A stretch of DNA of 64,000 bases from Euryarchaeota archaeon UBA257 (GTDB taxonomy: Archaea > Thermoplasmatota > Poseidoniia > Poseidoniales > Thalassarchaeaceae), in contig DAJO01000030.1 of NCBI GenBank assembly GCA_002498985.1, positions 14,586-78,585 on the forward strand, read 5' to 3'. Both the position numbers and the translations under genes were made by a program. Positions 42,661 to 63,823 of this stretch are shown one piece after another. Position 1 is the first letter of the stretch. The number at the start of each line of letters is the position of its first letter. Below the pieces are notes generated by a model. It was not told the DNA's origin and searched no databases. It worked only from the letters and a program-made list of their open reading frames with translations.

Positions 42661-43541
42661 TTCTCTAATATTGGAATTTCTATTTCTTCAACTTGTTCTT
42701 TTTCAAGTCCATATGAATGATACTTACTATTAATTATTAATGGGACAATTAGGCAAGATAAAGGAAGTACAGCTAGCAATATATATGCTGTGAATTTAGG
42801 CAGGATAAGTCTGTTTTCAACATCAACTAATAATTCAACATTCAACGCGCCTCCTGCTGATTCCTGATCTGTATTTCTGTTGTTATCCCAATTATCGAAA
42901 ACCAAGTAGTATTCTATTAATTGCGAACTTCCAAACCAAGATGATGATGTTTGTGTATCTACTGATACTGAAAAATAACCTGATTCCGATTTTTCATATG
43001 AATGCACATCTCTAAAAGGCATCCAAGTAATCATATCTCTATATTCAACAGGCAGTGAATCAAATTCATCTAACCAGTTTTCAGCTCTGTCTTCATAATT
43101 CCAATAATAAAAGTCCCTATAATTTCCCTCACTCATTAAGTAAACATCTGCCTTCACCCCATTACTTGGAGGTGAATCTACATCTCCTGAATAAGTGTAA
43201 CAGAAAGTATATGATTTACCTGGAGATAAAGCCATACTAATAGCAGTAGCTGAATCATTATTTACACTTAATTCCATACTGAAATCCTGAGAAATTGGGG
43301 CGTATATAGTTGGTTGGTTGTCACTATCAAATCCGTCAAACCAATCAGATGTAGGGTTAAGATAATGATAGTTTATCCTCTCATCTATATCCCAACTATT
43401 ACTTGCAGGAACCCCACAAACGCTGTCTGCTTGAACTATAGGGGTAATACTAATTACTAACGTAATCAGTACCATTGGCATAAGAAAACATGAGTTTAGG
43501 AAAACTGCACTTAATTTCCTTTTGAAAGACAAACTAATCAT
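42657..43541 (-). CDS. Bitopic surface protein of unknown function, translationally coupled to the upstream metalloprotease gene
   Basis: 294 aa. N-terminal signal/anchor (...VISITPIVQA|DS), an ectodomain of about 210 aa rich in Trp/Tyr/Asp/Asn, a C-terminal TM helix (FTAYILLAVLPLSCLIVPLII) and a short acidic tail. Its start overlaps the stop of the 1397-aa gene by 4 nt. Confidence 0.6.
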   Translation of the reverse strand: MISLSFKRKLSAVFLNSCFLMPMVLITLVISITPIVQADSVCGVPASNSWDIDERINYHYLNPTSDWFDGFDSDNQPTIYAPISQDFSMELSVNNDSATAISMALSPGKSYTFCYTYSGDVDSPPSNGVKADVYLMSEGNYRDFYYWNYEDRAENWLDEFDSLPVEYRDMITWMPFRDVHSYEKSESGYFSVSVDTQTSSSWFGSSQLIEYYLVFDNWDNNRNTDQESAGGALNVELLVDVENRLILPKFTAYILLAVLPLSCLIVPLIINSKYHSYGLEKEQVEEIEIPILEN

Positions 43542-46500
43542 TTCCTTCTAGTCCTAATAGGTCGTATGTATCCTGACTCTTTGTTTCTTCGTTCTTCGAC
43601 TGTCAAATATTTCGGCTGTGGTGGGGGGTTATGCTGATCCATCCCGGGCAACCCTCCTTCTGCTTTAACTTCCTGAACATCATAAGTCTCAGTACTATTC
43701 TTTGCATCCATTTCTTCTTCATCTTTCTGCCTCATTATCAACCAGCCTAACAAAAGTACTGTGGCTACTAATGCTAGAAGACCTGCGCTTCCAGCATCAG
43801 GGACAAAATCTTTCCAAGTCAAATCGGATATAGATAACGGCCCATCGTCTTCTTCAATGCTTAGGACTGTAATTTCAAATTGCTTGCTTGAACAAACATT
43901 TACTCCGTCACATGTTTCAAGAATAATTACTAACGGTTGATATTCCGGTAACATCCATACCTGTTCTCCCCAAACAAAGTCATTCATAGTATTTCCATCA
44001 TTATCTATTCCATCAATTGCGATATTCAAATCCCATTTTATTTCCGGTTCACTAGATAAATATCTATCTTTGTCATTCTCAAAATCACCATCGCCATTTG
44101 AATCTTCATTAATATCTGTATCTAACCATGCTTCTATTCCATCTTCAAGGTCTCTATCAATCACTTCTGCATAAAGATTGACAATCTCTCCCACTATGAC
44201 ATATTCTAATCCTGTAGGGTCATTTGTAACTATTTCTGGAGTTCTAGAAACATAAATCATTATTGATGTAGTGTTAGTTTCTCCAGCTTCAAAACCATCG
44301 ACAACTGTTAATTTCACTATGTAAGTGCCTGGAATTTGATATTGGTGCCATACTTCAAACCCTTCTTTAACCGGAGACGAATCTCCGAAATCCCAAATCC
44401 ATCTAGTAATCCCATTCCATTCAGGGTCTTCTTGATTTGTTGAGATCATTCCTTCGAAGATAGGATCTGAGTCATAACTCTCCGACCCATCAAACAGTAG
44501 TGGCATATTTGGAGCAATAAATCCCCCCCCGTTTTCAGTGAAAGGTATCTGCCATGAGATTTGAGAATAATCAGCGGGTATGTAGTCTAAGTTGCTACCA
44601 TTAATACTTGGTTGTCTGAATTTTATTTCAGGAACCGGTAAAGGATTATCTATTCTAATTGTATAAGATTTTGTTGCAGATTCCATTCCTCTTTCATCAA
44701 TTACTGTTAAACTAATACTGTATAATCCGGGCGAAGTAAATGTGTGATAAACGGTTGAAACATTGTATAGGTCTTCATCAAATGCAGAAATATTCCATAT
44801 TATCTCTAGAGTAGAGCTATTTCCGTCAGGATCAAACGATAGACTTTCAAATATATATTCTGTATCGACAAATCCATCAACAGGTCTAGCAAATACTGCT
44901 ACTGGTCGTTGATTAACAACAAGTACTTGAATGGTAGTGGTTGAAGTATTACCATCATCGTCAGTAACCTCTAAACTGATATTTTTCATCCCTGGTTCTT
45001 TCCATCCAATAACTGGATTTCTTTCTAGTGACTCAGTCACTGAGAAATCTGAGGTTAATGTCATCCCCGATCCTTCAATATTTACTCCTTCTTCAAATGT
45101 CCAACGATATTCAACTATAAATCCATCTTGATCTTCGAAGATTATTGGCATTTCTATAGGTGTTAGAGTAAACGTTTGTAACGTATCATCAAAGATTTGT
45201 TCAGGGACTCTGTTTAGAACTCTAATATAGATTGAATAATCTACAAATTGATTCCCATCATCTATTGTTAGAGTTAAAGTATACATAATTCCATCTGAAC
45301 TTCCATCGACCCATGCATGTCCTAATTCAGCTAACCCTTTACCTTGTTCAATTTGTCCATCCCCCCAATTCCAAGTAAAAGTCATCTCATCAATTGGTAC
45401 ATTATCTTGACTTGATTGTGCAGAAAACTGAACTCTTTGATTAGTCATTAAAGTTAATTCTGAATCTTGAACTATACCGTCCACAGTAATGACGGGGATA
45501 GGTACCGATGTGTCGCTAACAGAGATTGTCCAAGACTGAGGTTCAGAAAAATACCCTCCTTTATCTTTGATAGTCAATACAATTGTATATATTCCTGATT
45601 CAAGATATGAATGAACAGGATTTTTCAGTCCTGAAGATGTATTATCTCCTAAGTCCCAATAATATGCTATAGGTGTCTCATTATGGCTAAAACTTCCATT
45701 AACTTGACTGAACCCCCACTCGTCATAGCCAGAACCAAACATGGCTACAGGGAGCCAAGTTTGAGTAACATTTGTAGTCAGAGAACCAGATGCTACTGGT
45801 TCCATGTTGGCAACGTTAACTGGTAATGCAAACGCTTGATCTACCGTGACTCCTGTGAAGTCAGTAATTTTAACTCCATAAGTCCAATCTCCCGTTTCTG
45901 GAGGAGTAAACCAAATACTTTTTTCAGTTGCTACACTATTTCCAGCAGTCAAATCGAAAATTAATGTATCTTGAATGGTATTGTTTAGATAAGCGTTGAC
46001 TTCAACTTCAAGAATCTCAAAGAATGCATTAGAAGTGACTTCTAAGTCTATTCTGCTACTGTCATCTAGATTATCTCCATCTCTATCGAAGTTTTCTATA
46101 CTAGCAATTTCTACTTCTGCAGGATCAGTTATTAAACCGGCCTGAACTGTAATCGCTGCTTCTGGATAAGAACCCGTAGTAATGCCACAACTAGCATAAT
46201 TATAGTCGCAATCATCAACAATTGATTCATACCAAGTAATCAACCAAACTTCGTCGCTGATATTACCAAATCCGTATACTAAACCTGTTCCTGCACCACT
46301 TGCTGGGTCGATTCTCAATCTATCCATTGACCAAGTTCCTGTAGATGCTTCTTTGGACATAATTATTCCCTCAAAACCAAATTGTGTTGGAGATACCATC
46401 AGATTTAGCGGCGCACCTGAGCCCTGTGAAAATTTATACGACCTCATACCCCATCCCTCTACTGAATCGCTATTACTCGTCCAATCGTTTACCCACTGGT

Positions 46501-47731
46501 CATTGTATCCACTTTTCTGTACCTTACAGACGTAAGCTGCTGTACAGGCTTCGGATAAATCTAAGTTTGAAAAACCAAAAGCTCCCTGTGCGCTATCAAG
46601 TGTTACTGCTGCACTGAAATTGGCATAAATTTGACTCATTGTGGAGCCAATTGATGTAGATCCAGGTTGAGGATTTGCAGCTAAATTTTCAATTCCTGCT
46701 CCTCCAGTAGCAGTGTCTGCTACCAAACTCTGAATTGCATTACCCCCGCCTAATTTATCTGCTAAATACATCAAAAACATGAATCCAGCGCCATAATCTG
46801 CTAGTCTTTGATTCCACCACCTTACGCTCATATTCGAATTTTGAGCCCATTCATTGGCATGTCCAGTCAGAGCAGAAGTTACTCCGAAGCAGAGGTAAGC
46901 GGCCATATCTGCAGCGCCTTCATCAATCCATAAATTCTCAAACGGGTCTCTTGCATTATGTAATAAATGTTGAAACTCATGCGCTATTATCGTATTTCTC
47001 CAACTCATATCATCAACGTCAATGAATATAGATTCTCTTTGCGAAGAAATTCCTGGTGAGAAATAACCTCCTATCCCTCCACCTCCATCAATAGCTAAAA
47101 TCATAATTTCAACCTGGCAATTATTGTCCACATCAGGCATTGATCCAAAGTAAGTTGTATCGGTTGGGAAAATTGTTGATTCAAATGTCGAAGCAATATC
47201 ATTTAGAGTAGTTGCAGATAGTATCTGTCCGTCCTCGACAAATATTGCAGCATTAGATGAAATTTTTTGTACTGTTGCCTCAACATTTCCATTGGCAGAA
47301 GGAACAGTATCAGTATCTCCTTGACTCCATGCATTAGTACAATTACGTGTTGATGATTTAGAGTTCAAATATGCTTGAGAAAATGGAAGCACTAGATTTG
47401 GATAACCATCTTCTATCCACTGCTTTTTTAGGTGACCAGTAGCCGAAAATGCAGGTTTAGATTCATTTACAAACATATATTTTTTCCCCTCAATTGAAGG
47501 GTCGAAATCATCTAAATTCCCATAAGAAATTTCTGATAAATTGCTATCAGAAGTAGGAGTTGCCATAGCAAGTGGGGATAAACTTGCAAGTAACATTACC
47601 ATTACAATAAACAATGGAGTAGTGAGATTGTTTTGCTTATTATTTAGTCCCAATAGTGGCACATCCTGTTTATTACTAGTTAATGCCCGTTTGAGACCTA
47701 TTTTAACATCGATGGAGCATCGTTCGTACAT
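43538..47731 (-). CDS. Giant membrane-anchored extracellular zinc metalloprotease (HEFQH gluzincin-like catalytic domain plus multiple PKD-like repeats)
   Basis: HEFQH at nt 46967-46981, followed 16 residues later by DEG (candidate third ligand). At least four PKD-like repeats (WDLGDNTSS, WNWGDGQ, WDFGDSSP and others). C-terminal TM helix (AGLLALVATVLLLGWLIM) plus a tail of about 65 aa. Signal peptide MVMLLASLSPLAMA. The real start may be M44/M46 (about 47602), because the longest ORF abuts the divergent gene. Confidence 0.8.
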   Translation of the reverse strand: MYERCSIDVKIGLKRALTSNKQDVPLLGLNNKQNNLTTPLFIVMVMLLASLSPLAMATPTSDSNLSEISYGNLDDFDPSIEGKKYMFVNESKPAFSATGHLKKQWIEDGYPNLVLPFSQAYLNSKSSTRNCTNAWSQGDTDTVPSANGNVEATVQKISSNAAIFVEDGQILSATTLNDIASTFESTIFPTDTTYFGSMPDVDNNCQVEIMILAIDGGGGIGGYFSPGISSQRESIFIDVDDMSWRNTIIAHEFQHLLHNARDPFENLWIDEGAADMAAYLCFGVTSALTGHANEWAQNSNMSVRWWNQRLADYGAGFMFLMYLADKLGGGNAIQSLVADTATGGAGIENLAANPQPGSTSIGSTMSQIYANFSAAVTLDSAQGAFGFSNLDLSEACTAAYVCKVQKSGYNDQWVNDWTSNSDSVEGWGMRSYKFSQGSGAPLNLMVSPTQFGFEGIIMSKEASTGTWSMDRLRIDPASGAGTGLVYGFGNISDEVWLITWYESIVDDCDYNYASCGITTGSYPEAAITVQAGLITDPAEVEIASIENFDRDGDNLDDSSRIDLEVTSNAFFEILEVEVNAYLNNTIQDTLIFDLTAGNSVATEKSIWFTPPETGDWTYGVKITDFTGVTVDQAFALPVNVANMEPVASGSLTTNVTQTWLPVAMFGSGYDEWGFSQVNGSFSHNETPIAYYWDLGDNTSSGLKNPVHSYLESGIYTIVLTIKDKGGYFSEPQSWTISVSDTSVPIPVITVDGIVQDSELTLMTNQRVQFSAQSSQDNVPIDEMTFTWNWGDGQIEQGKGLAELGHAWVDGSSDGIMYTLTLTIDDGNQFVDYSIYIRVLNRVPEQIFDDTLQTFTLTPIEMPIIFEDQDGFIVEYRWTFEEGVNIEGSGMTLTSDFSVTESLERNPVIGWKEPGMKNISLEVTDDDGNTSTTTIQVLVVNQRPVAVFARPVDGFVDTEYIFESLSFDPDGNSSTLEIIWNISAFDEDLYNVSTVYHTFTSPGLYSISLTVIDERGMESATKSYTIRIDNPLPVPEIKFRQPSINGSNLDYIPADYSQISWQIPFTENGGGFIAPNMPLLFDGSESYDSDPIFEGMISTNQEDPEWNGITRWIWDFGDSSPVKEGFEVWHQYQIPGTYIVKLTVVDGFEAGETNTTSIMIYVSRTPEIVTNDPTGLEYVIVGEIVNLYAEVIDRDLEDGIEAWLDTDINEDSNGDGDFENDKDRYLSSEPEIKWDLNIAIDGIDNDGNTMNDFVWGEQVWMLPEYQPLVIILETCDGVNVCSSKQFEITVLSIEEDDGPLSISDLTWKDFVPDAGSAGLLALVATVLLLGWLIMRQKDEEEMDAKNSTETYDVQEVKAEGGLPGMDQHNPPPQPKYLTVEERRNKESGYIRPIRTRRK

Positions 47732-55264: not shown

Positions 55265-55762
55265 ATGAGCAACCACCCGGATAACAAATTACCCGTCACG
55301 GAAGACTTATCTGAATCATATAGAAAACAGATTGAAGATGTCATTAAAGAAGAAGCAATGCGTCGTATCTCTGAGTCTCAAAACCCTGAAGAATTAGAAA
55401 GATTAAGTACATTATCTTTAGTTAAGTTATTTGAATCGAATGATTCCGATTTAATTCCAGCTTTAATGTCTAGGTTAGGAGTAGTTAGAGCCGCTTTGGA
55501 TGGTCATGGAGGCGGCCTGTTAGTAAGTTCGGCAGAAATTGAGACGAATAATATTGGCGAGAGGGTGTTATCTTTAATTCTAGATTTGGATGGAGCTTGC
55601 GTTTCGTGTGGTGCTGCTCCAGGGACGCTGAAGGGAATTCAGGATGATCTATTGATGGATAAAGAAATAGTTTCTGTTCGATTTACGGTTTCGATGCTAG
55701 AATGGTTCGATGAGATTCAAAAAGAGTTTGTACTGAAATTTGGAGGAGTAGTTTTCGTTTAG
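55265..55762 (+). CDS. NifU/Nfu-like Fe-S scaffold domain protein
   Basis: The C-terminal half has GHGGGLLV...LDLDGACVSCGAAPGTLKGIQDDL, the Nfu CxxC pattern. The N-terminal roughly 70 aa are unassigned. Divergent from sufC. Confidence 0.75.
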   Translation: MSNHPDNKLPVTEDLSESYRKQIEDVIKEEAMRRISESQNPEELERLSTLSLVKLFESNDSDLIPALMSRLGVVRAALDGHGGGLLVSSAEIETNNIGERVLSLILDLDGACVSCGAAPGTLKGIQDDLLMDKEIVSVRFTVSMLEWFDEIQKEFVLKFGGVVFV

Positions 55763-56385
55763 ATTATCGCTTCAAACTCGTCAATTGCTTGCTTTGAGAA
55801 ACCTAGAACCGTTACTACGTCTCCTTCAATTATTTTTGTATATTGACCGGCCTCTCCGGCAAAATCGTAACCTCCTGCCTTCCCCACCCATGAATTATTT
55901 TCAACCAAAGAAATCAAATTTCCTTCACTCAGATCGTCAAATTCTACTACTGCATAATCGGTCCAAATTTTATATCTCCATTTAGAATATAGTTTTTGGT
56001 ATTGATTATTATTACGAGTCAATATAGCTGTAGAAGACCAAACTCTGTGTCTTTTCCCTGAAAGTCTCAGTAACATACTTGCTGCTTCCATTTTATCTTT
56101 GGGTTTTCCCAACGCTATTTCCTCTCCTGGGGCTTCTACTAAAGTATCTGAGACAATTATTAGGTCAGGGGAATTGATTGCCTCTGAATCTCTTAAACTC
56201 CACTCTAATGCTGCTGATTCAGCTTTTGTAAAACAAATATCTAACGATTGTTGTTCGACATTCACCTCATTTTCTATATTTTTTTCTTTACTTAAAAGAG
56301 GCATACAAATTAGTTCAATGCTTTCATAACGGCCATTTAACCAATCGAATCTCCTCTCCGAAGCGGATGCAAGCAAGACTCGCAC
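55759..56385 (-). CDS. maf: Maf-like nucleoside triphosphate pyrophosphatase
   Basis: VLLASASERRFDWL (LASxSxRR) and GKAGGYDFAGEAGQYTKIIEGDVVTVLGFS match Maf N- and C-terminal blocks. Confidence 0.85.
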   Translation of the reverse strand: MRVLLASASERRFDWLNGRYESIELICMPLLSKEKNIENEVNVEQQSLDICFTKAESAALEWSLRDSEAINSPDLIIVSDTLVEAPGEEIALGKPKDKMEAASMLLRLSGKRHRVWSSTAILTRNNNQYQKLYSKWRYKIWTDYAVVEFDDLSEGNLISLVENNSWVGKAGGYDFAGEAGQYTKIIEGDVVTVLGFSKQAIDEFEAII

Positions 56386-56393
56386 TATCTCAC

Positions 56394-59300
56394 CTACAAT
56401 GAAATTCTATTATCGCAAATAGGACATTTAATCATTTTAAGTCCCATTGATACTTCAAATCTTGATGAACACTCAGGACATAAAATTGGTCTATTAATTT
56501 GTGGTATTTCTGCCACTCCTAGAGGTGGTAAGGGTATTTTTTGTAGAGGTTCTACTAATTCTTGTTTACTCTCTTGTAATTGCATTTGTGTATTCCAAGC
56601 ATTAGTATTTTTTCGACTATCTCTTCTTTGTTTTCGAGCATTAGTTTCCTCAATTTCCTCATCTATCAATTCAATTTCTGAAGACTTAATTTCTATGTCT
56701 GTCGATTCTACTATATCGACTACATTTTCTTCTAAGACTATATTCCCGGTAGCAACTCTTGTTCTTTTTCTACCTAACCATTTTACTGCACTTAGCGACA
56801 TTGTAGAGAGCAACAATAAACATATTAGCAGGACAGTTATTGAGATTCCTGCCATCAATATTCCAAAATTTTGTTCATCGAGTCCTAGATATATTCTCAT
56901 ATCATCAAGTAAATTCAAATCGCCTCTATCTGGATCACTATCATCTATTAAAGATCTTATTTCCCATCCATATATCTCATTCCAACTTAGAATTATTGAT
57001 TGGTCACTCAAAGGACTTCTATCTACTGATGAAAGGTGATTTTTCCCTGTTGTAATCCTATTTGATAGTCCAATCCATTCTTCCTCATGAATTGGATTCA
57101 TCAGACCATATTGTATCTGACTGCCAGTAGGTCCAACAAAGTCATAAAAAATCTGTATCCCTAAGTGAGTTTCAGTCATTTGAATATTCTCGATTCCTTT
57201 AGATGGTATCTCTACACTTAGATTTTCTAAAGCTGTCATGGTTGAATCAGTAACTTTTGAAACTAATTTCGATTCTGCATCTGAGCCTTCTTTCCAAACT
57301 GAATAGATATAATCACTTCCTTCATGTGTTATTACAGACATCTTTTGCATACCTGCTTCATCTCCAACAGCCTTCCTGTAGGTCCAAGAAGTTTGGTCAC
57401 TGGAACCATGTGCATACCACAATCCGATTCTCTCATCACCAGTAATATCATCTCTATTTGATTGGTATAGTATGTGAGTGTATTCTTCTCCAAATTCTAC
57501 AGCTACTGGGTCGGAATCATACATACTAAGTTCAATTTCATCAATTACATTTGGCGTGAGTTTCCAGTCATCGAATGAGGTTGGATAATCTGATTTTAGT
57601 AAGAATACACTCGTTAGGTCCTTGAAAGTCCCTCCTGTTGAAATATCTCTATGATATCCTCCAATAATTATGTCAGTGCCTCTTACATCCATATCGATAC
57701 CAAAATATTTCCCCTCTGATAACGATATAGGTTGAATTAAGTCTTGAACAGGGCTCATTTCACAAGAAGCATCAATTCTTGAGTAACTAATAGTTTGTTT
57801 GAAATAACCTAGATTGTCAATATATCTCCTAGTCCAAGAAATATGAGCGTATCCATCACTGGTACTCCAAGATGTCAAATCTCCTGACCACTTTGTTTCA
57901 AGAACATTAGAACAAGGAACTAGTGCAAGATTCTCATTTAATCGATATAGAGCTAATCCTCCTTCTTTACTTGTTATAACTAAACCTTCTCCATTCAGAT
58001 CTATCACTTTCACTGGTTCTTCTCCATAATCAAATGCCAAATTACGAGGAGCTTTCAATGATGACTGGTCCACAAGAATTGTGGAAATGATCTCATTATT
58101 ACTCATATCTAAATCACTTTCTCCCTGAACTGTAATTTTGATCTCTAGAGGCCCTACTTCTTGAGCAATGTAGGCAAATGCAATTTGACTAGCGCCCTGT
58201 CCTACAACAAGCGAGATAGTGGTCGTTCCTTCTTTCATCCAACCTAAATCACTTTTCAGCCAAAGTGTCGCATCCACAGAAATTGCATTAGTTGAACCTA
58301 AGTTATCGACTCTACCAGTGATCAAGAATTGTTCCTGAGGCCTTGGAATAGAAGGCTCTGTCTTCACCGCTCCATCTCTGAATGCTAAATCAATACCTTG
58401 AGGTCTTTGCAAAACTGGGAACGTAATTGATATGTCGTTATCGGATTCATTATTTTCTTGTATATCATCTAGAGGGTCTAAAGAAACAGTTAATTGTTTA
58501 TTACCTACAGTAGATGGATTCCATGAAAGTGAAATTTCAATTATGTCTCCACTTTCTACACTCTGTATGATTATCTCATCTTTCCTGTAACCGTCTTCCA
58601 AAAGATAAATTGTTAACTCATCTGCTGAAATATCACCTATATTTCTTATCTGAACTTTTGCTTCTAAAAATGTATTTACATATGTCTCACTAACTGGTAT
58701 GCCATATTCTTGAACTGAGATTCCAGTTCTAAACATCAAGTCGGGTGATGGGGGTTTATTGTCAATTTCTACAGTAATACGAATCTCTTCAGAAGCAACA
58801 CCAACTCCACTAACAAACCTGACAGAGAACCTTTGTATTCCATCATCTGTATCTTCAGAATCCCAAGGAATAGACCATTCTATTTCTTCTGCTCCTGAGC
58901 CTGAATAGTAAGTCATATTTTTCCATTCATCAGTCCCTAGTCTCCACTGTAGTTGAGCCCCATTCACTGTTTCCAATAATCCGCTAATTTCAACATTTCC
59001 GCTTACAATATCCTGATTATTCGGCGAATTTACTTCAAGAGATATTATCCCTAAATTGTGAGTATTTTTTGTTGTATTACTCCATTGTTCAAACTCATTT
59101 CTAGATTTAACCTCGATTTGGAGAGTTTCTGCATCTACATCGACATCTTCTTCAAAATTCGGAATATCAAAATTTGTGGTCCAATTAATTGTTCCAAGTG
59201 CCTGGTGCCAATCAACTAGTACACCAGTTGAAAGAGGTCCTCCTCCCGTAGGTCTATACTTGTAGGTGACCCGAACTTGAACTTCTTCAGTAGTTCCATT

Positions 59301-61217
59301 CTCTTCCCCAGCATCATTAATATGTCCTCTGACACTATAACTTTCACCTTCTATTAACCACAAGCCACTCGGTTTTTCAATAACTGCCCAATTCCCTGTT
59401 CCTTCACCAACTGGAGGGTCTCCTCCTCCAGTTCCATTACCGGGATCTCCTCCTCCACCAGTATCATCTCCTAACATAGCCTGAAGGATTAGATTTCCAT
59501 CAATAATTCCAAATCCATAATCCTCATTCCATATGTCTGAAACTGATGGCATTGAGGCAGGCCCTCTAACCTCCGAATTATTTCTCAATAAATCCTTAAC
59601 TTCTTGAGGTTCTAATTCATCATCTATTTGTAAAATGATTGCAACTAATCCTGCTACGGCAGGTGTCGACATACTGGTGCCATCCATAGAGACATAACCA
59701 TCATCGGCTAGAGAAGTAGAGTCTTGCCCTGGAATTGTAGAACTTGACGTAGCATGTTGCGCTGATGTAATACCTGAGCCTGGAGCTACTACGTCAGGTT
59801 TCAATTCATCCCATTTATTTTCATCATTATCATCGACCCTAGGTCCCGAGTTTGAATAATCTGCTATGTCATCGTCATTTCTTTGGATTGTATTTTTGTC
59901 ATCTATTGCTCCAACAGTAATGGAAGAATCTGCTGCACCTACTGAAGTTACTCTATTGCTACCATCATTCCCTATTGCAGCAATAGGTACAATTCCTGCT
60001 TCTGCACAATTATTAACAAGCCTGGCTGCAGAATTATTCCCGTCGTCTCCTTGATCATTTTCACCAACTGGTGAACTTCCACTACCGAATGACATCGTCA
60101 TTACGTCGATACCTTCACTTGAATCATTATTTCCCCAATCAGTATTTACATTTTGTAAGACCCATTGTAATCCTTTGATAATAGGCCCCTCATCTCCACC
60201 TGCACTTCCTCCAGAATCTGTCATTACTTTCACATCAACAAGGTAGGATCCAGGTGCATAGCCTTGGTTAACCCTTCTTGAATCTCCAGTTCCTAAAGCA
60301 ATACCTGCAACATGTGTTCCATGACCATGTCCATCATCTGGATCAAACTCACCATCGTTACATTCTTGAGAGTTCCAAGATGTTGCATCACAACCCGCTA
60401 ACCATTTGGGATCCGAGAGATCATCGGGTTGTTTTTCATTATCATTATTGTTATCTGAGAAATCATCTAAAGAAAAATGCTCATTATCTACTCCTGAGTC
60501 CAATACTGCGATAACAACTCCCGAACCATCATATCCAAAATCTCTCAAGGTCTCATCATAAACATCAGATGTTTGAACCTTAGATCCTCTTGTAGCTACG
60601 CTCAGATATGAAACAATCTTATCTTGTTCTTCTATCATAACTACTCCCTCTTGCTGCCAAATTTCTATCAATGAACTGACTGGGACATGATCTATGACTA
60701 TTGAATCAATATAATCTACAGGGAAAAACCAAGAACCTTCTTCTTCCCATCCATGTCTAGTTAAAATTTCTTTCAATTTTTGTAGATCGGTCTCTCCGGG
60801 GTGCCATGAGAACCCTACAATTATCGCAGTAGTCATACGTCCATCATCTCCTAGAATTGCTGTCGCAGAATGAGATTCTTTTTGCCCCGCAATCATATAT
60901 TGTAGACTATCTTCCATTCCATTGGAATCTTTATCTGTGTTGAAGTTCATCCACCAGTACGGTTCCTCAACTGCAGGACTTGCATCCCATGGAGGGAACC
61001 CTATTCCAAGAAATTTTTCTGGACATGCCTCTTCACCACAAATTAGTAGTGGTATTTCATCATCTAGCGCCTGTAACAAATCTTCATTTTCTTCGTTAAG
61101 GTGTTGATTAGAGTCATCTTCTGATGGTACAATTGCAGAAACTCCCACTGATAAATCTAGTACCAACATCAACATTACAACTAACATAGGTCCAACTGTT
61201 TTCGATGCTCCTGCCAT
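56394..61217 (-). CDS. Giant type I membrane-anchored subtilisin-like (S8) serine protease with CARDB/Ig-like and Asp-box-like domains and a cytoplasmic C-terminal zinc ribbon
   Basis: Signal peptide. Catalytic triad motifs VIAVLDSGVD (Asp codon 60498-60500), HGHGTHVAG (His codon 60321-60323) and GTSMSTPAVAG (Ser codon 59673-59675). Gly-rich linker. CARDB-like repeats (IRNIGDISA, VDNLGSTNA). TM helix at about nt 56790-56870. Tail of about 130 aa ending CPECSSRFEVSMGLKMIKCPICDNRISL. Confidence 0.85.
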   Translation of the reverse strand: MAGASKTVGPMLVVMLMLVLDLSVGVSAIVPSEDDSNQHLNEENEDLLQALDDEIPLLICGEEACPEKFLGIGFPPWDASPAVEEPYWWMNFNTDKDSNGMEDSLQYMIAGQKESHSATAILGDDGRMTTAIIVGFSWHPGETDLQKLKEILTRHGWEEEGSWFFPVDYIDSIVIDHVPVSSLIEIWQQEGVVMIEEQDKIVSYLSVATRGSKVQTSDVYDETLRDFGYDGSGVVIAVLDSGVDNEHFSLDDFSDNNNDNEKQPDDLSDPKWLAGCDATSWNSQECNDGEFDPDDGHGHGTHVAGIALGTGDSRRVNQGYAPGSYLVDVKVMTDSGGSAGGDEGPIIKGLQWVLQNVNTDWGNNDSSEGIDVMTMSFGSGSSPVGENDQGDDGNNSAARLVNNCAEAGIVPIAAIGNDGSNRVTSVGAADSSITVGAIDDKNTIQRNDDDIADYSNSGPRVDDNDENKWDELKPDVVAPGSGITSAQHATSSSTIPGQDSTSLADDGYVSMDGTSMSTPAVAGLVAIILQIDDELEPQEVKDLLRNNSEVRGPASMPSVSDIWNEDYGFGIIDGNLILQAMLGDDTGGGGDPGNGTGGGDPPVGEGTGNWAVIEKPSGLWLIEGESYSVRGHINDAGEENGTTEEVQVRVTYKYRPTGGGPLSTGVLVDWHQALGTINWTTNFDIPNFEEDVDVDAETLQIEVKSRNEFEQWSNTTKNTHNLGIISLEVNSPNNQDIVSGNVEISGLLETVNGAQLQWRLGTDEWKNMTYYSGSGAEEIEWSIPWDSEDTDDGIQRFSVRFVSGVGVASEEIRITVEIDNKPPSPDLMFRTGISVQEYGIPVSETYVNTFLEAKVQIRNIGDISADELTIYLLEDGYRKDEIIIQSVESGDIIEISLSWNPSTVGNKQLTVSLDPLDDIQENNESDNDISITFPVLQRPQGIDLAFRDGAVKTEPSIPRPQEQFLITGRVDNLGSTNAISVDATLWLKSDLGWMKEGTTTISLVVGQGASQIAFAYIAQEVGPLEIKITVQGESDLDMSNNEIISTILVDQSSLKAPRNLAFDYGEEPVKVIDLNGEGLVITSKEGGLALYRLNENLALVPCSNVLETKWSGDLTSWSTSDGYAHISWTRRYIDNLGYFKQTISYSRIDASCEMSPVQDLIQPISLSEGKYFGIDMDVRGTDIIIGGYHRDISTGGTFKDLTSVFLLKSDYPTSFDDWKLTPNVIDEIELSMYDSDPVAVEFGEEYTHILYQSNRDDITGDERIGLWYAHGSSDQTSWTYRKAVGDEAGMQKMSVITHEGSDYIYSVWKEGSDAESKLVSKVTDSTMTALENLSVEIPSKGIENIQMTETHLGIQIFYDFVGPTGSQIQYGLMNPIHEEEWIGLSNRITTGKNHLSSVDRSPLSDQSIILSWNEIYGWEIRSLIDDSDPDRGDLNLLDDMRIYLGLDEQNFGILMAGISITVLLICLLLLSTMSLSAVKWLGRKRTRVATGNIVLEENVVDIVESTDIEIKSSEIELIDEEIEETNARKQRRDSRKNTNAWNTQMQLQESKQELVEPLQKIPLPPLGVAEIPQINRPILCPECSSRFEVSMGLKMIKCPICDNRISL

Positions 61218-61286
61218 GGCTCTCTTAGAGAGCCAGCATAGGTAGTGGTATAATTTGAACTGATAATTAATTCATTTTTTTCCGAA

Positions 61287-62354
61287 TTATGGCCAAAAAA
61301 GATGTTCTTTATTCAAGGAACAAATCAGACTGTAATTTTCATCTTTCTCGAATAACTTCACTTCCCCATCACATATTGGACAAATTGTATTCTCTGCTAG
61401 CTCTTCAAGCCATGCCTGTCTTGTTTCTAATTCATCTCCCTGCTCTTTAAGATTCTTCAAAATTCTTTTTGCATTTCCTTGAAGAGGCTTTCCTTCAATC
61501 TCCCAAGGATCTTCATTTAAGACTCCTAGATTTCTTTTTGCAATAATTCTCTTTGCTTCACCGATGTTTGCAGCATTGTTTTGAGTGCTTTCTGAATTAA
61601 GTGGACTTGGCCCTCCTCTCGCTATAACTCTCGCCAATAAAAATGCCATAAAAAATCCCCCTATATGAGCCATATGGGCAATATTGGTGTCCCCCGAGGT
61701 TCCCTCTTGTATTACATAAATTTGATAAATTTCTAATCCTAATCTCACAAATACAATTATCCATACTGGCCACGCTCTAATTAAGAATAATAGTGGGAAT
61801 TCTATTTCATCATTTGGCCAACATGCCATGTAAGCTCCCAATAATCCAAAAGCAGCACCGCTAGCACCTATAGCAGGATTTATTGAATCTGGATGTGTAG
61901 CAACCCAGGCTACATTCCCTCCTAAGAATCCTAGGGCGTAAACAAGCAGCCATCTTTTACTGCCTAACCTTTGTTCCAAGGGTACACCAACAAGTCCAAT
62001 GACAAGAATGTTCGATAGTACGTGAAGCCAATCTGCATGTAACCAAGCAGATGTTATAAAACGATGAATTTGTGTGGGGTCATCTGCCAAAACAGGGTAT
62101 AAAGAGAGAAAATGTATCTCATTGAAATCTAGTTCCAAGATAGTAAAGGTGAATCTAACAAACATTACTAGAAGCAGTGAGAGAACCATAGCCAATGCTA
62201 CACTTGTTTTTTCTCTTAATGAATTAACAAAAGGAATTATTGAAACTATAACATATATTGAAAGAAGTATGAAATCACTATTTTCTAATTGTGACCAGTA
62301 TAAATCATACTCCGCAGAGGTAATCACGAACTGTATCCGGCCGTATTGTAGCAA
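61287..62354 (-). CDS. Rhomboid-family intramembrane serine protease with a C-terminal cytoplasmic zinc-ribbon-like tail
   Basis: WLHADWLHVLSNIL (H..xxN), the catalytic GASGAAFGLLGA (GxSG) and AHIGGF (His) are rhomboid hallmarks. The tail ends CPICDGEVKLFEKDENYSLICSLNKEH. The start codon is uncertain (TTG at 62354 in the ORF track). Confidence 0.85.
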   Translation of the reverse strand: MLQYGRIQFVITSAEYDLYWSQLENSDFILLSIYVIVSIIPFVNSLREKTSVALAMVLSLLLVMFVRFTFTILELDFNEIHFLSLYPVLADDPTQIHRFITSAWLHADWLHVLSNILVIGLVGVPLEQRLGSKRWLLVYALGFLGGNVAWVATHPDSINPAIGASGAAFGLLGAYMACWPNDEIEFPLLFLIRAWPVWIIVFVRLGLEIYQIYVIQEGTSGDTNIAHMAHIGGFFMAFLLARVIARGGPSPLNSESTQNNAANIGEAKRIIAKRNLGVLNEDPWEIEGKPLQGNAKRILKNLKEQGDELETRQAWLEELAENTICPICDGEVKLFEKDENYSLICSLNKEHLFWP

Positions 62355-62389: not shown

Positions 62390-63823
62390 ATGAACCACCC
62401 TCGGAAGTGTATGGAAGTTCAGACCCTAATACGGATTTCGGGTCTTCAAATTCATAGAGGTAGCCGCCTTGTAATATCAGATTTTGATTTTGAATTATTG
62501 GAAGGAGAGGTGGTTACTTTAGTGGGTCCAAATGGTTGCGGTAAGACCACATTACTCGAATCTATTGCAGGTATGCATACAATTTCTTCTGGATCAGTCT
62601 ATTGGAAAGACGACTTATCGGAAATGAAATTAGTAAGAGATTCAGATGGTAGAAGAAATTCTTTACCTCCAATGGGTTTAACTCTACAAAAGAACGGAAT
62701 ATCAGGCGAGGAAACGGTTGAAGAAAGAATAAAAACAGTATTGACAGTTTCTGGTTGCGAATTCGATGATATCAAAGTCCTAGAATTACTTGATTGTTGG
62801 GGTCTTAAACATAGAATTTCAGATAGAGTTTCTCAATTGTCTGGAGGATTAGCTAGACGACTCTCGGTACTTTCAGGACTTGCACCTGCTTTGCTATCTA
62901 AAAAATCTCGAGTCGTACTACTAGACGAACCTTCAGAAGGACTAGATAAATCTGCCAAATTGCTATTGATTAATTGGCTGAAGGCTCTAATTTTAAGAGG
63001 TCATGGCATAGTTATAGCAACACATGATTCTGACTTAATTTCAATAGCAAATAGAACACTCACATTTACTGATAATAAAGAAATTAATCTTAGTTCCCAA
63101 TCGCAACCAGATTCAGATTTCATAATCCCTAATTCTACAAATAATGTTCCAATAAAAAAAGTCTCCAGTCTATTCAATTGGGCTTACAGGATGGAAAAAA
63201 GAAATCCAATCGATACAATCAATCGTCTAATCCCTGCAATTCTTGCACTATTGCTGTCCCATGCTTTGGTATCCCAGGAAGAAATATCCCTCGTAGGAAC
63301 TGACTTTCTATCCGCCTTAATATTACTTCCCTCCTTTATCTCTGTAGTAATCCCTCCTGCTTTGATTAGCAGATATGCAGAAGAAAATTGTGGTCGATGG
63401 TGGTCAGCAGTAATAGGGCCCAAATTCCGTCTTTCATCATCTATTATTGGTTCCTCGATTTTACTTCCAATACCATTAATTTATGTTTCATGGTTTATTC
63501 TTTCCGATAATTTATTCATTCCTAATGATTCTGTAGTCTATTGGTTATGGTTACCTTGCTTAGTAATGTATTTTGTTGCAATTGCAGCCTCATCACTGCA
63601 TTTGTTGGTTTCAGATTTGAGAAGATCAGGAGCCTCTGTTGTGGCTCTTCTCTTGTTAGTTCTAGTTTGGCCATTTATTGAGCTGGTGGATTCTCTAGAA
63701 ATGATTTTTCTCAATGGTATGAGTTGGGGATTTTCATTAGAAGAACCAATTTTTATGATGTTTCTGGCGGGTATAATTAGTTTATTGGTGTGGATGGTTT
63801 CTGTTTATCTTCCGGAAGCATAA
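62390..63823 (+). CDS. ABC transporter with fused ATPase and permease domains (possibly a CcmA-CcmB-like heme exporter)
   Basis: Walker A GPNGCGKTT, signature LSGGLARRL, Walker B VVLLDEPSEGLD, then about 220 aa with about 6 hydrophobic helices. ATG 62411 (MEVQTLIRISGL) is an alternative start. The Ccm assignment rests only on the CcmC-like neighbour. Confidence 0.75.
   Translation: MNHPRKCMEVQTLIRISGLQIHRGSRLVISDFDFELLEGEVVTLVGPNGCGKTTLLESIAGMHTISSGSVYWKDDLSEMKLVRDSDGRRNSLPPMGLTLQKNGISGEETVEERIKTVLTVSGCEFDDIKVLELLDCWGLKHRISDRVSQLSGGLARRLSVLSGLAPALLSKKSRVVLLDEPSEGLDKSAKLLLINWLKALILRGHGIVIATHDSDLISIANRTLTFTDNKEINLSSQSQPDSDFIIPNSTNNVPIKKVSSLFNWAYRMEKRNPIDTINRLIPAILALLLSHALVSQEEISLVGTDFLSALILLPSFISVVIPPALISRYAEENCGRWWSAVIGPKFRLSSSIIGSSILLPIPLIYVSWFILSDNLFIPNDSVVYWLWLPCLVMYFVAIAASSLHLLVSDLRRSGASVVALLLLVLVWPFIELVDSLEMIFLNGMSWGFSLEEPIFMMFLAGIISLLVWMVSVYLPEA

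What the first reader, a model, noticed from the sequence alone, without database searches (positions are those of the whole stretch)
56394..62354. Adjacent rhomboid and 1607-aa single-pass S8 subtilase both end in cytoplasmic CPxC zinc ribbons: possible protease-shedding or signalling pair
On the minus strand, a rhomboid intramembrane protease (61287-62354) lies 69 nt upstream of a giant type I membrane-anchored subtilase (56394-61217). A maf gene then follows after an 8-nt gap.

- The subtilase has one TM helix (about nt 56790-56870) and a cytoplasmic tail of about 130 aa ending in CPEC-x17-CPIC (about 56397-56486).
- The rhomboid carries its own C-terminal tail ending CPIC-x16-C-x5-H (about 61290-61385).

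Rhomboids cleave single-pass type I TM segments, so the neighbour is an obvious candidate substrate, with cleavage releasing the protease ectodomain. The shared CPIC-type ribbons could dock both tails to one cytoplasmic partner or to each other.

The subtilase architecture also looks unusual: S8, then a Gly-rich linker, then CARDB-like repeats, then a region with an Asp-box-like SSDQTSW, then TM, then a zinc ribbon. A 6-bp-stem palindrome, GCTCTC-TTA-GAGAGC (61218-61232), abuts the subtilase start codon.
Basis: inference. Interest (0 to 1): 0.65.

Follow-up and report, generated by a model that had tools for sequence, protein, structure and literature searches.

The report
Archaeal rhomboid paired with anchored subtilase
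In the abundant ocean archaea of Marine Group II, a membrane-embedded rhomboid protease gene always sits directly upstream of a giant membrane-anchored protein-degrading enzyme. Relatives of the same rhomboid in other archaea sit beside a different anchored enzyme, so the neighbour is a strong but untested candidate substrate.

Summary
**Observation.** It is confirmed, with small corrections. The window comes from a Marine Group II (MGII; order Poseidoniales) archaeon of the MGIIb family (Thalassarchaeaceae). It encodes:
- an active-looking rhomboid with one extra N-terminal helix, a 6-TM core and a cytoplasmic C-terminal tail;
- 69 nt downstream, a 1607-aa S8 subtilase with a signal peptide, Ig/CARDB domains, a large beta-rich domain, one TM helix and a 125-aa cytoplasmic tail.

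Both tails end in invariant zinc-ribbon-like motifs.

**Adjacency.** The rhomboid-then-subtilase order holds in 80 of 80 MGIIb genomes. It also holds in 9 of 9 other Poseidoniales clades, where the genes on both sides differ.

**The rhomboid tail.** Its helix plus zinc ribbon is an old feature of a wide archaeal rhomboid subfamily. It is not specific to this pair.

**Independent support.** In Thermoplasmata and other uncultured archaea, subfamily members overlap the end of a different large secreted enzyme (LTD-CARDB-PLD). That enzyme ends in a TM helix plus DWRKRKW.

**Verdict.** This matches the "dedicated sorting protease next to its single cargo" rule known for bacterial rhombosortase. The substrate idea gains real support. 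The idea that the two ribbons dock to each other does not. Cleavage itself is untested. I rate this a new variant of a known kind, interest about 0.6.

The parts
61287..62327 (-). Rhomboid intramembrane serine protease gene. The probable start is GTG at 62327; the mechanical ORF runs up to TTG at 62354. It has one extra N-terminal TM helix plus the 6-TM core.
   Evidence: - ORF.
- Pfam Rhomboid, E 7e-28.
- Homologues start at MITSAEY.
- AF2 model, mean pLDDT 79.6, helices at 25-47, 52-72, 109-130, 132-153, 163-178, 197-215 and 224-245.
- Foldseek best hits are GlpG.
61665..61862 (-). Stretch holding the catalytic dyad: Ser165 in GASGA (nt 61860-61862) and His230 in AHxAHxGG (nt 61665-61667). 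The TM2 residues H111 and N115 lie upstream of it.
   Evidence: All four residues are invariant in 29 homologues. They are also invariant across the distant subfamily alignment.
61290..61619 (-). Cytoplasmic C-terminal tail of the rhomboid (aa 246-355). It runs: disordered linker, DPW, helices including GDELETRxAWLEELAE, then CPxC-x16-C-x5-H (nt 61302-61382), ending in WP.
   Evidence: - C325, C328, C345, H351, W354 and P355 are invariant.
- pLDDT is 83-96 for aa 270-355, with a beta hairpin at 331-345.
- The tail is homologous to that of 68 of 97 full-length subfamily representatives.
61218..61286 (-). Conserved 69-nt spacer between the two genes. It holds a TATA-like AAATTATAC (61248-61256). 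The 8-3-8 palindrome occupies 61217-61235, its last base being the first base of the subtilase ATG.
   Evidence: - Sequence.
- Unique in the window.
- Spacer length, TATA-like box and palindrome are kept across most MGIIb loci, with symmetric arm changes and a variable loop.
- RNA hairpin -16.4 kcal/mol, z -2.2.
56394..61217 (-). Gene for the 1607-aa type I membrane-anchored S8 subtilase.
   Evidence: - ORF.
- 120 full-length orthologues at 44-100% identity.
- Conservation profile along the protein.
59508..60527 (-). Peptidase S8 catalytic domain (aa 231-570), with D240 (DSG), H299 (HGTH) and S515 (GTSMS).
   Evidence: - Pfam E 3e-44.
- Triad motifs located.
- Motifs nearly invariant in orthologues.
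58071..59387 (-). Four Ig-like beta-sandwich domains after a Gly-rich linker (aa about 611-1049). The third is the Pfam CARDB domain (aa 837-928).
   Evidence: - AF2 model of aa 590-1607, mean pLDDT 80.7.
- Pfam CARDB.
56943..58019 (-). Large all-beta ectodomain (aa about 1067-1425) of about 28 strands. It is propeller-like and matches no Pfam family.
   Evidence: - AF2 pLDDT about 90.
- No Pfam hit above cut-off.
- No PDB sequence match.
- Whole-model Foldseek gave only generic hits.
56772..56873 (-). Single TM helix (aa 1449-1482) with conserved flanks: G1445-L1446, F1451, G1457 in the outer third of the helix, and W1480 followed by a basic cluster.
   Evidence: - Hydropathy.
- Alignment of 120 orthologues.
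- Invariant and nearly invariant columns.
- Helix in the AF2 model.
56397..56771 (-). Cytoplasmic tail (aa 1483-1607). It runs: acidic LEE(D/N)VVD segment, variable region, RRxRR helix, Pro-rich linker, then zinc-ribbon-like CxxC-x14-CPxC (nt 56415-56480).
   Evidence: - The four Cys are invariant in 120 MGIIb orthologues.
- The motif is present in 8 of 9 other Poseidoniales clades.
- AF2 predicts four short strands, pLDDT about 70.

Best explanation
**What it is.** The two genes form a dedicated intramembrane-protease and substrate pair. It is an archaeal analogue of the bacterial rhombosortase and its cargo.

**Proposed mechanism.**
1. The subtilase is exported through its signal peptide. 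It is held on the cell surface by its single C-terminal TM helix, with the catalytic domain outside and the 125-aa tail inside.
2. The rhomboid is catalytically intact, and its own C-terminal tail is cytoplasmic.
3. The rhomboid cuts the subtilase in or just outside the outer part of that TM helix.
4. Cleavage sheds or re-anchors the roughly 1450-aa protease ectodomain. A TM stub with the zinc-ribbon tail stays on the cytoplasmic side.
5. The rhomboid's conserved acidic helix plus zinc ribbon probably acts as a cytoplasmic exosite or regulator. One possibility is that it docks the basic cluster that follows the cargo's TM helix.

**Shown versus inferred.**
- Shown: gene structure, domain content, topology signals, conservation of the motifs, and conservation of the adjacency.
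- Inferred: that cleavage occurs, where it occurs, and what the two tails do.
For: 1. **Catalytic competence.** The Ser-His dyad and the TM2 H/N residues are invariant. The fold is GlpG-like.
2. **Right substrate class.** The subtilase is type I and single-pass, with a positive-inside cluster after the TM helix. The TM and juxtamembrane block is as conserved as the ectodomain: 0.61 against 0.26 for the variable part of the tail. A nearly invariant Gly sits in its outer third.
3. **Adjacency within MGIIb.** It holds in 80 of 80 genomes.
4. **Adjacency in the rest of Poseidoniales.** It holds in 9 of 9 other clades.
   - The rhomboids there are about 44-46% identical to one another and to the window's.
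   - Gaps range from -10 to 169 nt.
   - Downstream, glmS or glmU replaces maf.
   - Upstream, the ABC gene can be absent (L084), an ORF can be inserted (L192), or NMD3/PGI can be inverted (L085).
5. **Same subfamily, unrelated cargo.** Other members of this rhomboid subfamily overlap the 3' end of an unrelated exoenzyme.
   - The rhomboids share the extra TM helix, the acidic helix and the zinc ribbon.
   - The exoenzyme is a 610-1300-aa LTD-CARDB-PLD protein.
   - It ends in a TM helix plus DWR[KR][KR].
   - This is seen in 6 of 8 loci of the P0265 clade, in L095, and in a Thermoplasmata locus, L194.
6. **Precedent for adjacency.** When a rhombosortase has a single GlyGly-CTERM target, the two genes tend to be adjacent. 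Known targets include S8 proteases and extracellular nucleases (PMC3237569).
7. **Precedent for the cargo type.** ExeM is listed as an extracellular nuclease of Shewanella (PMC6085458). From my own knowledge, it carries an LTD domain and is a rhombosortase substrate.
8. **Closest curated model.** Rhombosortase is the best NCBIfam hit for these rhomboids.
Against: - No cleavage data exist, and co-folding could not be run.
- All 89 S8 cases lie within one order, so shared ancestry explains part of the conservation.
- MGIIb loci carry a conserved TATA-like box and a palindrome in the spacer. The subtilase may therefore be transcribed and regulated separately from the rhomboid.
- The subtilase's TM helix is followed by a 125-aa tail. 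This differs from the known rhombosortase signals and from the PLD-type cargo.
- The rhomboid scores below the rhombosortase cut-off: 45 against 84 bits.
- Two distant subfamily members give no clear cargo neighbour. P0286 (L196) has none; P0289 (L195) is ambiguous.
- The small-residue features in the TM helix are generic.
Confidence: 0.5

Rival explanations
1. The pair is conserved neighbourhood without direct proteolysis. Both are envelope proteins that stay together by ancestry or shared regulation within Poseidoniales. The rhomboid's real substrates are other membrane proteins (general membrane-protein quality control or another pathway), and the subtilase stays permanently anchored.
For: - The whole ABC, rhomboid, subtilase, maf, nifU, sufCB block is syntenic in MGIIb, so adjacency there is uninformative.
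- The subtilase appears to have its own promoter and operator.
- Substrates of archaeal rhomboids are unknown, and those proposed in Haloferax are unrelated proteins (PMC9263693).
Against: - The pair is the only link that survives flank rearrangements in 9 of 9 other clades.
- An unrelated cargo family shows the same tight linkage, with overlapping genes, to the same rhomboid subfamily. Ancestry within Poseidoniales cannot explain that.
Confidence: 0.25
2. The rhomboid acts on the subtilase as a partner, adaptor or quality-control factor rather than as a sheddase. It would bind the TM helix and tail to control trafficking, activity or turnover. Comparable cases are iRhom2 with the single-pass protease ADAM17, and Bacillus YqgP, which hands MgtE to FtsH.
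For: - Both proteins carry conserved cytoplasmic modules that could mediate regulated contact.
- iRhom chains appear among the structure and sequence matches.
- YqgP is cited as an FtsH adaptor in PMC9263693.
Against: - The catalytic residues are invariant, unlike in iRhoms.
- The PLD-type cargo has no cytoplasmic tail beyond a 5-7 residue basic cluster, so tail-to-tail regulation cannot be the general mode of the subfamily.
Confidence: 0.13
3. The two CPxC zinc ribbons bind each other or a common cytoplasmic partner. The pair would then be a signalling device in which the released zinc-ribbon fragment carries information into the cell.
For: - Both ribbons are invariant over long evolutionary distance.
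- They are the only such motifs among 46 ORFs in the window.
- The subtilase tail also keeps a basic RRxRR helix.
Against: - The rhomboid ribbon predates the pairing and occurs with ribbon-less cargo.
- The L086 subtilase lacks a ribbon while its rhomboid keeps one.
- Similarity between the ribbons is only the Cys register.
- No Pfam zinc-ribbon model reaches its cut-off.
Confidence: 0.1

Closest known systems
Rhombosortase (RrtA/RssP, TIGR03902) with GlyGly-CTERM cargo in Vibrio, Shewanella and other Proteobacteria
   Same: - A rhomboid-family intramembrane serine protease is paired with secreted hydrolases that are held by a C-terminal TM helix plus a basic cluster.
- Known cargo includes S8 proteases, the serine protease VesB and extracellular nucleases.
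- Where there is a single target, enzyme and target genes are adjacent (PMC3237569; PMC6219818).
- Rhombosortase is the best NCBIfam hit for these rhomboids.
   Different: - The host is archaeal.
- The score is below the family cut-off: 45 against 84 bits.
- The rhomboid has an extra N-terminal TM helix and a cytoplasmic acidic helix plus zinc ribbon.
- The MGII cargo has no Gly-Gly motif, and its TM helix is followed by a 125-aa zinc-ribbon tail rather than ending the protein.
- Any lipid re-attachment is unknown.
Haloferax volcanii rhomboids RhoI and RhoII
   Same: They are archaeal rhomboids whose physiological substrates are still unknown. Knock-out of rhoII affects cell-envelope proteins (PMC9263693).
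   Different: - No conserved neighbouring candidate substrate has been reported for them.
- The putative targets proposed in Haloferax (PibD, Agl15) are unrelated to a subtilase.
- Their relation to the tail-bearing subfamily was not tested here.
Extracellular S8 subtilisins of Marine Group II
   Same: All MGII genomes were reported to encode one to four extracellular S8 subtilisins, thought to degrade external peptides (PMC6864105). This gene is one of them.
   Different: That report does not describe the TM anchor, the zinc-ribbon tail or the link to a rhomboid. A search for 'Marine Group II' plus 'rhomboid' found no paper.
iRhom2 with ADAM17, and RHBDL2 with thrombomodulin (animals)
   Same: Both involve a rhomboid-fold protein working with a single-pass membrane protein. 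In the ADAM17 case that protein is a protease whose ectodomain acts outside the cell. Cytoplasmic regions take part in regulation or recognition (own knowledge; iRhom structures appear).
   Different: iRhoms are catalytically dead, whereas this rhomboid keeps its dyad. There is no sequence relationship in the tails.

Membership tests
Rhomboid protease family (MEROPS S54, Pfam PF01694) | Pfam Rhomboid model above the gathering score | tested here: met
   98 bits against a cut-off of 22.6, aa 94-245.
Rhomboid protease family (MEROPS S54, Pfam PF01694) | Catalytic Ser in GxSG (TM4), His in TM6, and the H...N pair in TM2 | tested here: met
   S165, H230, H111 and N115 are invariant in 29 close homologues and in 25 distant ones.
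Rhomboid protease family (MEROPS S54, Pfam PF01694) | Six-TM GlpG-like core fold | tested here: met
   The AF2 model has 7 TM helices, one extra plus six. The best Foldseek PDB hits are GlpG chains, TM-score 0.6-0.73 normalised to the target.
Rhombosortase (NCBIfam TIGR03902) | Score at or above the curated cut-off of the equivalog model | tested here: not met
   45.3 bits against 84 for the window protein. Distant subfamily members score 43-45 bits.
Rhombosortase (NCBIfam TIGR03902) | Cargo ends in a GlyGly-CTERM tripartite signal (Gly/Ser-rich motif, TM helix, basic cluster) at the extreme C-terminus | tested here: not met
   The subtilase has a TM helix and a basic cluster, but no Gly-Gly motif, and a 125-aa tail follows. 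The PLD-type cargo of distant relatives does end in a TM helix plus DWRKRKW, but also without a Gly-Gly motif.
Rhombosortase (NCBIfam TIGR03902) | In a dedicated system, enzyme and single target are encoded next to each other | tested here: met
   89 of 89 Poseidoniales loci. The rule itself is from PMC3237569.
Rhombosortase (NCBIfam TIGR03902) | Rhomboid-dependent removal of the C-terminal anchor from the cargo | not testable with these tools
   This needs a cleavage assay or proteomics.
Subtilase (MEROPS S8, Pfam PF00082) | Pfam model above the cut-off, with an Asp-His-Ser triad in DSG / HGTH / GTSMS motifs | tested here: met
   151.9 bits against 21.8. Motifs are at residues 240, 299 and 513 and are nearly invariant in 43 orthologues.
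CARDB domain (PF07705) | Pfam model above the cut-off | tested here: met
   68.7 bits against 22.7, aa 837-928. The neighbouring domains are Ig-like only by the AF2 model.
BNR / Asp-box repeat | SxDxGxTW motif recognised by Pfam and conserved | tested here: not met
   There is no BNR hit even at E up to 10. The SSD positions vary among orthologues.
Zinc ribbon | Four metal ligands on two beta-hairpin knuckles, conserved | tested here: inconclusive
   - The ligands are invariant in both proteins.
- Short beta hairpins are predicted: rhomboid pLDDT above 90, subtilase about 70.
- All Pfam zinc-ribbon models score below their cut-offs.
- Metal binding cannot be tested here.
iRhom-type pseudoprotease partner of a membrane protease | Loss of the catalytic Ser/His | tested here: not met
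   The dyad is invariant.

The most novel reading that the evidence does not exclude
A widespread archaeal rhomboid subfamily may be the sorting or shedding enzyme for a so-far undescribed class of C-terminal anchors. The subfamily has one extra TM helix, the 6-TM core, an acidic cytoplasmic helix and a zinc ribbon. The anchors are a TM helix followed by a W/basic cluster.

In Marine Group II the system would have been elaborated into regulated intramembrane proteolysis. Cutting the universal surface subtilase would release the cell's main exoprotease. It would also free a cytoplasmic fragment that carries a basic helix and a zinc ribbon. That fragment would signal back, for example at the conserved palindrome on the subtilase's own promoter.
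Probability: 0.12. Interest if true: 0.85.

Novelty: new variant of a known kind. Interest (0 to 1): 0.62.

Why it matters
- **An open question becomes testable.** Natural substrates of prokaryotic rhomboids are known in only a handful of cases, and none is established in archaea. A pair with invariant linkage gives a concrete candidate enzyme-substrate couple. Independent support comes from a second cargo family. The couple can be tested by simple co-expression.
- **Ecological relevance.** Marine Group II archaea are among the most abundant surface-ocean microbes and are thought to live on proteins. It is unknown whether their one universal giant subtilase stays on the cell or is released. 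The answer bears on how they feed and how dissolved protein is turned over.
- **A domain to annotate.** The conserved helix plus zinc-ribbon tail defines a large, unannotated rhomboid subfamily.

Tried and rejected
- **Foldseek of the 1018-aa subtilase model against PDB.** It returned only generic multi-Ig matches (complement C3/C5, alpha-2-macroglobulin) with TM-scores near 0.1. This says nothing about the beta-rich domain.
- **PDB sequence search of aa 1040-1450.** Nothing significant.
- **Pfam on both tails and on aa 1040-1607 at E up to 10.** Only sub-threshold zinc-ribbon or RING-like hits.
- **Viral-contig scan for distant tail-bearing rhomboids.** Only short tail-less rhomboids were found.
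- **Literature searches.** 'Marine Group II' plus 'rhomboid', and 'rhomboid' plus 'archaea' plus 'zinc ribbon', both returned no papers.
- **A shared TM-flanking Trp as a universal signal.** Rejected: it is present in MGIIb and in the PLD cargo but absent in several other Poseidoniales clades.
- **The palindrome as a regulon motif.** It occurs only once in the window and is absent outside MGIIb.


Full report
**1. What is in the window**

The region holds three genes on the minus strand.
- A rhomboid ORF at 61287-62354.
- A 1607-aa ORF at 56394-61217, starting 69 nt after the rhomboid stop.
- maf at 55759-56385, starting 8 nt after the subtilase stop.

Pfam confirms Rhomboid (aa 94-245), Peptidase_S8 (aa 231-570) plus CARDB (aa 837-928), and Maf.

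Homologues of the rhomboid all begin at MITSAEY. The true start is therefore probably the GTG at 62327, giving 346 aa.

Names attached to homologues and to the loci fetched place the window in Marine Group II (MGII; order Poseidoniales), in the MGIIb family Thalassarchaeaceae.

**2.

- **Topology.** Hydropathy gives the subtilase an N-terminal signal-like segment. There is one TM helix at aa 1449-1482, followed by KWLGRKRTR and 125 further residues.
- **Cysteine motifs.** The subtilase motif is CPEC-x14-CPIC, not x17. The rhomboid motif CPIC-x16-C-x5-H is as described. Among 46 non-overlapping ORFs in the window, only these two carry such a motif.
- **S8 triad.** The motifs are present at residues 240, 299 and 513.
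- **Asp-box.** It is not supported: there is no BNR hit, and the residues are not conserved.

**3. Structure predictions**

*Rhomboid (mean pLDDT 79.6).*
- It has seven TM helices: one extra N-terminal helix plus the six-helix core.
- The core matches GlpG in Foldseek.
- GlpG's C-terminus is cytoplasmic (established knowledge), so the tail that follows TM6 must be cytoplasmic too.
- The tail is confidently predicted (pLDDT 83-96 for aa 270-355). It forms three to four helices followed by a beta hairpin that carries the Cys/His ligands.

*Subtilase aa 590-1607 (mean pLDDT 80.7).*
- Four Ig-like beta-sandwich domains.
- A roughly 360-residue all-beta domain of about 28 strands, which looks propeller-like. 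It matches no Pfam family and no PDB sequence.
- The TM helix.
- A disordered tail that contains one basic helix.
- A small four-stranded ribbon at the end (pLDDT about 70).

**4. Conservation of the parts**

- **Rhomboid.** In 29 MGII rhomboids at 53-91% identity, several features are invariant. These are the dyad, the TM2 H/N pair, a DPW, the helix GDELETRxAWLEELAE, and C325, C328, C345, H351 and the final WP.
- **Subtilase.** It has 120 listed full-length orthologues at 44-100% identity. The four tail cysteines are invariant.
- **TM block.** The TM and juxtamembrane block is as conserved as the ectodomain, 0.61 against 0.26 for the middle of the tail. Nearly invariant residues are G1445, L1446, F1451, G1457 and W1480. 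A plain anchor would not be expected to be this constrained, but this is suggestive only.

**5. Is the adjacency conserved?**

- **MGIIb.** A scan of one genome per species found 297 genomes with a relative of the rhomboid. In the best 80, all MGIIb, the subtilase follows the rhomboid every time. The whole block (ABC, rhomboid, subtilase, maf, nifU, sufC, sufB) is syntenic there, so on its own this says little.
- **Other clades.** I took the next rhomboid clusters from an exhaustive profile search, found their relatives and looked up their contigs. These include Poseidoniaceae (MGIIa).
- **Result.** In 9 of 9 clades a 1541-1711-aa S8/CARDB protein follows the rhomboid, with gaps from -10 to 169 nt.
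- **Flanks differ.**
  - Downstream, glmS or glmU replaces maf.
  - Upstream, the ABC gene is missing in L084.
  - An ORF is inserted in L192.
  - NMD3/PGI is inverted in L085.
- **Conclusion.** The rhomboid-subtilase junction is the stable link in this neighbourhood.
- **Subtilase ribbon.** Eight of the nine subtilases keep TM, basic cluster, acidic stretch, RRxRR helix, Pro-rich linker and CxxC-x14-CPxC. One (L086) ends without a ribbon, while its rhomboid keeps its own.

**6. The rhomboid tail is older than the pairing**

- The exhaustive search collapses all MGIIb rhomboids into one 50%-identity cluster.
- After a few other Poseidoniales clusters, scores drop to about 120 bits. At that level there are many roughly 300-aa rhomboids ending in ...ED.PEVR.AWLE.F....CPxCG..L......C..CG.
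- Of 97 full-length representatives among the best 149 hits, 68 carry this tail. The last ligand is CxxC, CxC or C...H.
- An alignment shows the tail is homologous to the MGII tail.
- One such cluster is named Thermoplasmata archaeon.
- Neither Pfam nor NCBIfam has a model for this tail. Rhombosortase is the best NCBIfam hit for the core but falls below its cut-off.

**7. What sits next to the distant relatives**

- **P0265 clade.** The metagenome scan recovered eight loci.
  - In six, the gene immediately upstream overlaps the rhomboid start by 10-55 nt.
  - It encodes a 610-1300-aa secreted LTD-(CARDB)-PLD/NucT-like protein.
  - That protein ends in a TM helix plus RDWRKRKW at the very C-terminus.
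- **L095.** A ninth locus, with a rhomboid of a different cluster, shows the same cargo end.
- **L194.** The Thermoplasmata locus shows it again, with a 4-nt overlap and the ending ...IIVVLIDWRRRFG.
- **Less clear or negative.** One subfamily member (P0289) has a 1276-aa type I single-pass DUF4129 protein 310 nt downstream. Another (P0286) has no such neighbour.
- **Conclusion.** The same rhomboid subfamily is tightly linked to two unrelated large exoenzymes, which share only the C-terminal TM anchor.

**8. Interpretation**

- **Bacterial precedent.** Haft and Varghese described this pattern for bacterial rhombosortase. When a genome has a single GlyGly-CTERM target, target and rhombosortase genes are adjacent. 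Targets include S8 proteases and extracellular nucleases (PMC3237569).
- **Most likely reading.** The MGII rhomboid processes the C-terminal anchor of its neighbour.
- **What differs from rhombosortase.**
  - The host is archaeal.
  - The rhomboid has an extra TM helix and a helix plus ribbon tail.
  - The cargo has no Gly-Gly motif.
  - In MGII, a long zinc-ribbon tail follows the cargo's TM helix.
- **Ribbon docking.**
  - The rhomboid ribbon occurs with ribbon-less cargo.
  - L086 lacks the cargo ribbon.
  - Profile comparison of the two ribbons finds only the Cys register.
- **A more economical guess (inference only).** The rhomboid's acidic helix may contact the basic cluster that follows every cargo TM helix.

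**9. The spacer**

- **Elements.** The 69-nt spacer holds a TATA-like AAATTATAC. Twelve nt further on lies a perfect 8-3-8 palindrome that ends in the A of the subtilase ATG.
- **Conservation.** Spacer length, box and palindrome are kept across most MGIIb loci.
  - The bases between the box and the palindrome vary freely.
  - The loop varies.
  - The arms change symmetrically: TGGCTCTC/GAGAGCCA, TGGCTCTGC/GCAGAGCCA and TGGCTCTAC/GTAGAGCCA.
- **Limits.** It is absent outside MGIIb.
- **As RNA.** It would fold at -16.4 kcal/mol.
- **Reading.** It is either an operator over the transcription start or a hairpin masking the start codon. Either way the subtilase is probably regulated on its own. This weakens the 'one operon' view but not the substrate idea.

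**10. Novelty and limits**

- **Literature.** Reviews state that natural targets of archaeal rhomboids are scarcely known (PMC9263693). MGII papers mention extracellular S8 subtilisins but not this pairing (PMC6864105; no paper).
- **Rating.** I rate it a new variant of a known kind.
- **Limits.**
  - All evidence is comparative.
  - The cleavage, its site, and the roles of both ribbons remain untested.

Noticed in passing
window 61217-61256 (minus strand), and the same spacer in L001-L080: A conserved TATA-like box (AAATTATAC, 61248-61256) is followed by a perfect 8-3-8 palindrome, TGGCTCTC-TAA-GAGAGCCA, that overlaps the subtilase start codon. Across MGIIb genera the arms change symmetrically (..CTGC/GCAG.., ..CTAC/GTAG..), the loop varies, and the spacer between box and palindrome varies freely. 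This looks like an operator or a start-codon-masking hairpin. It is absent in other Poseidoniales clades.
   Followed up: partly
L087-L095 and L194 (e.g. L094:4237-8010, L194:3963-7004): Large secreted LTD-(CARDB)-PLD/NucT-like proteins in Thermoplasmata and other uncultured archaea end in a conserved C-terminal signature. It consists of a TM helix plus (R/L/I)DWR(K/R)(R/K)(K/F)(W/G). Their last codons overlap the start of a tail-bearing rhomboid. NCBIfam has no model for this putative sorting signal.
   Followed up: partly
L086:10082-14707: One Poseidoniales clade has a shorter subtilase (1541 aa). Its cytoplasmic tail ends without the zinc ribbon, although the adjacent rhomboid keeps its own ribbon. 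The next gene starts 55 nt later, so this is not a split gene.
   Followed up: partly
window 62390-63823 (+): A 477-aa fusion of an ABC ATPase with a six-TM domain is transcribed divergently from the rhomboid, about 62 nt away. In other Poseidoniales clades the equivalent is two genes, an ABC ATPase plus a CcmC-like 'Cytochrom_C_asm' membrane protein. It is missing in L084.
   Followed up: no
window 43538-47731 (-): This is another very large (1397 aa) protein with an N-terminal hydrophobic segment and a single TM helix near the C-terminus (about aa 1309). It has no zinc-ribbon motif. It is a second type I surface protein that could be compared as a possible rhomboid substrate.
   Followed up: no
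L195:8330-14121: Next to a distant tail-bearing rhomboid (P0289) lies a 1276-aa type I single-pass DUF4129 protein with a roughly 180-aa cytoplasmic tail. It is followed by a DUF4350 protein and a MoxR-type AAA ATPase. Whether it is cargo is unclear.
   Followed up: no
L081-L085, L191-L193 (C-termini of the subtilases): Outside MGIIb the subtilase tails carry long proline-rich repeats (LPPLGELPP..., PPPG...) between the RRxRR helix and the zinc ribbon. The repeats vary in length between clades.
   Followed up: no
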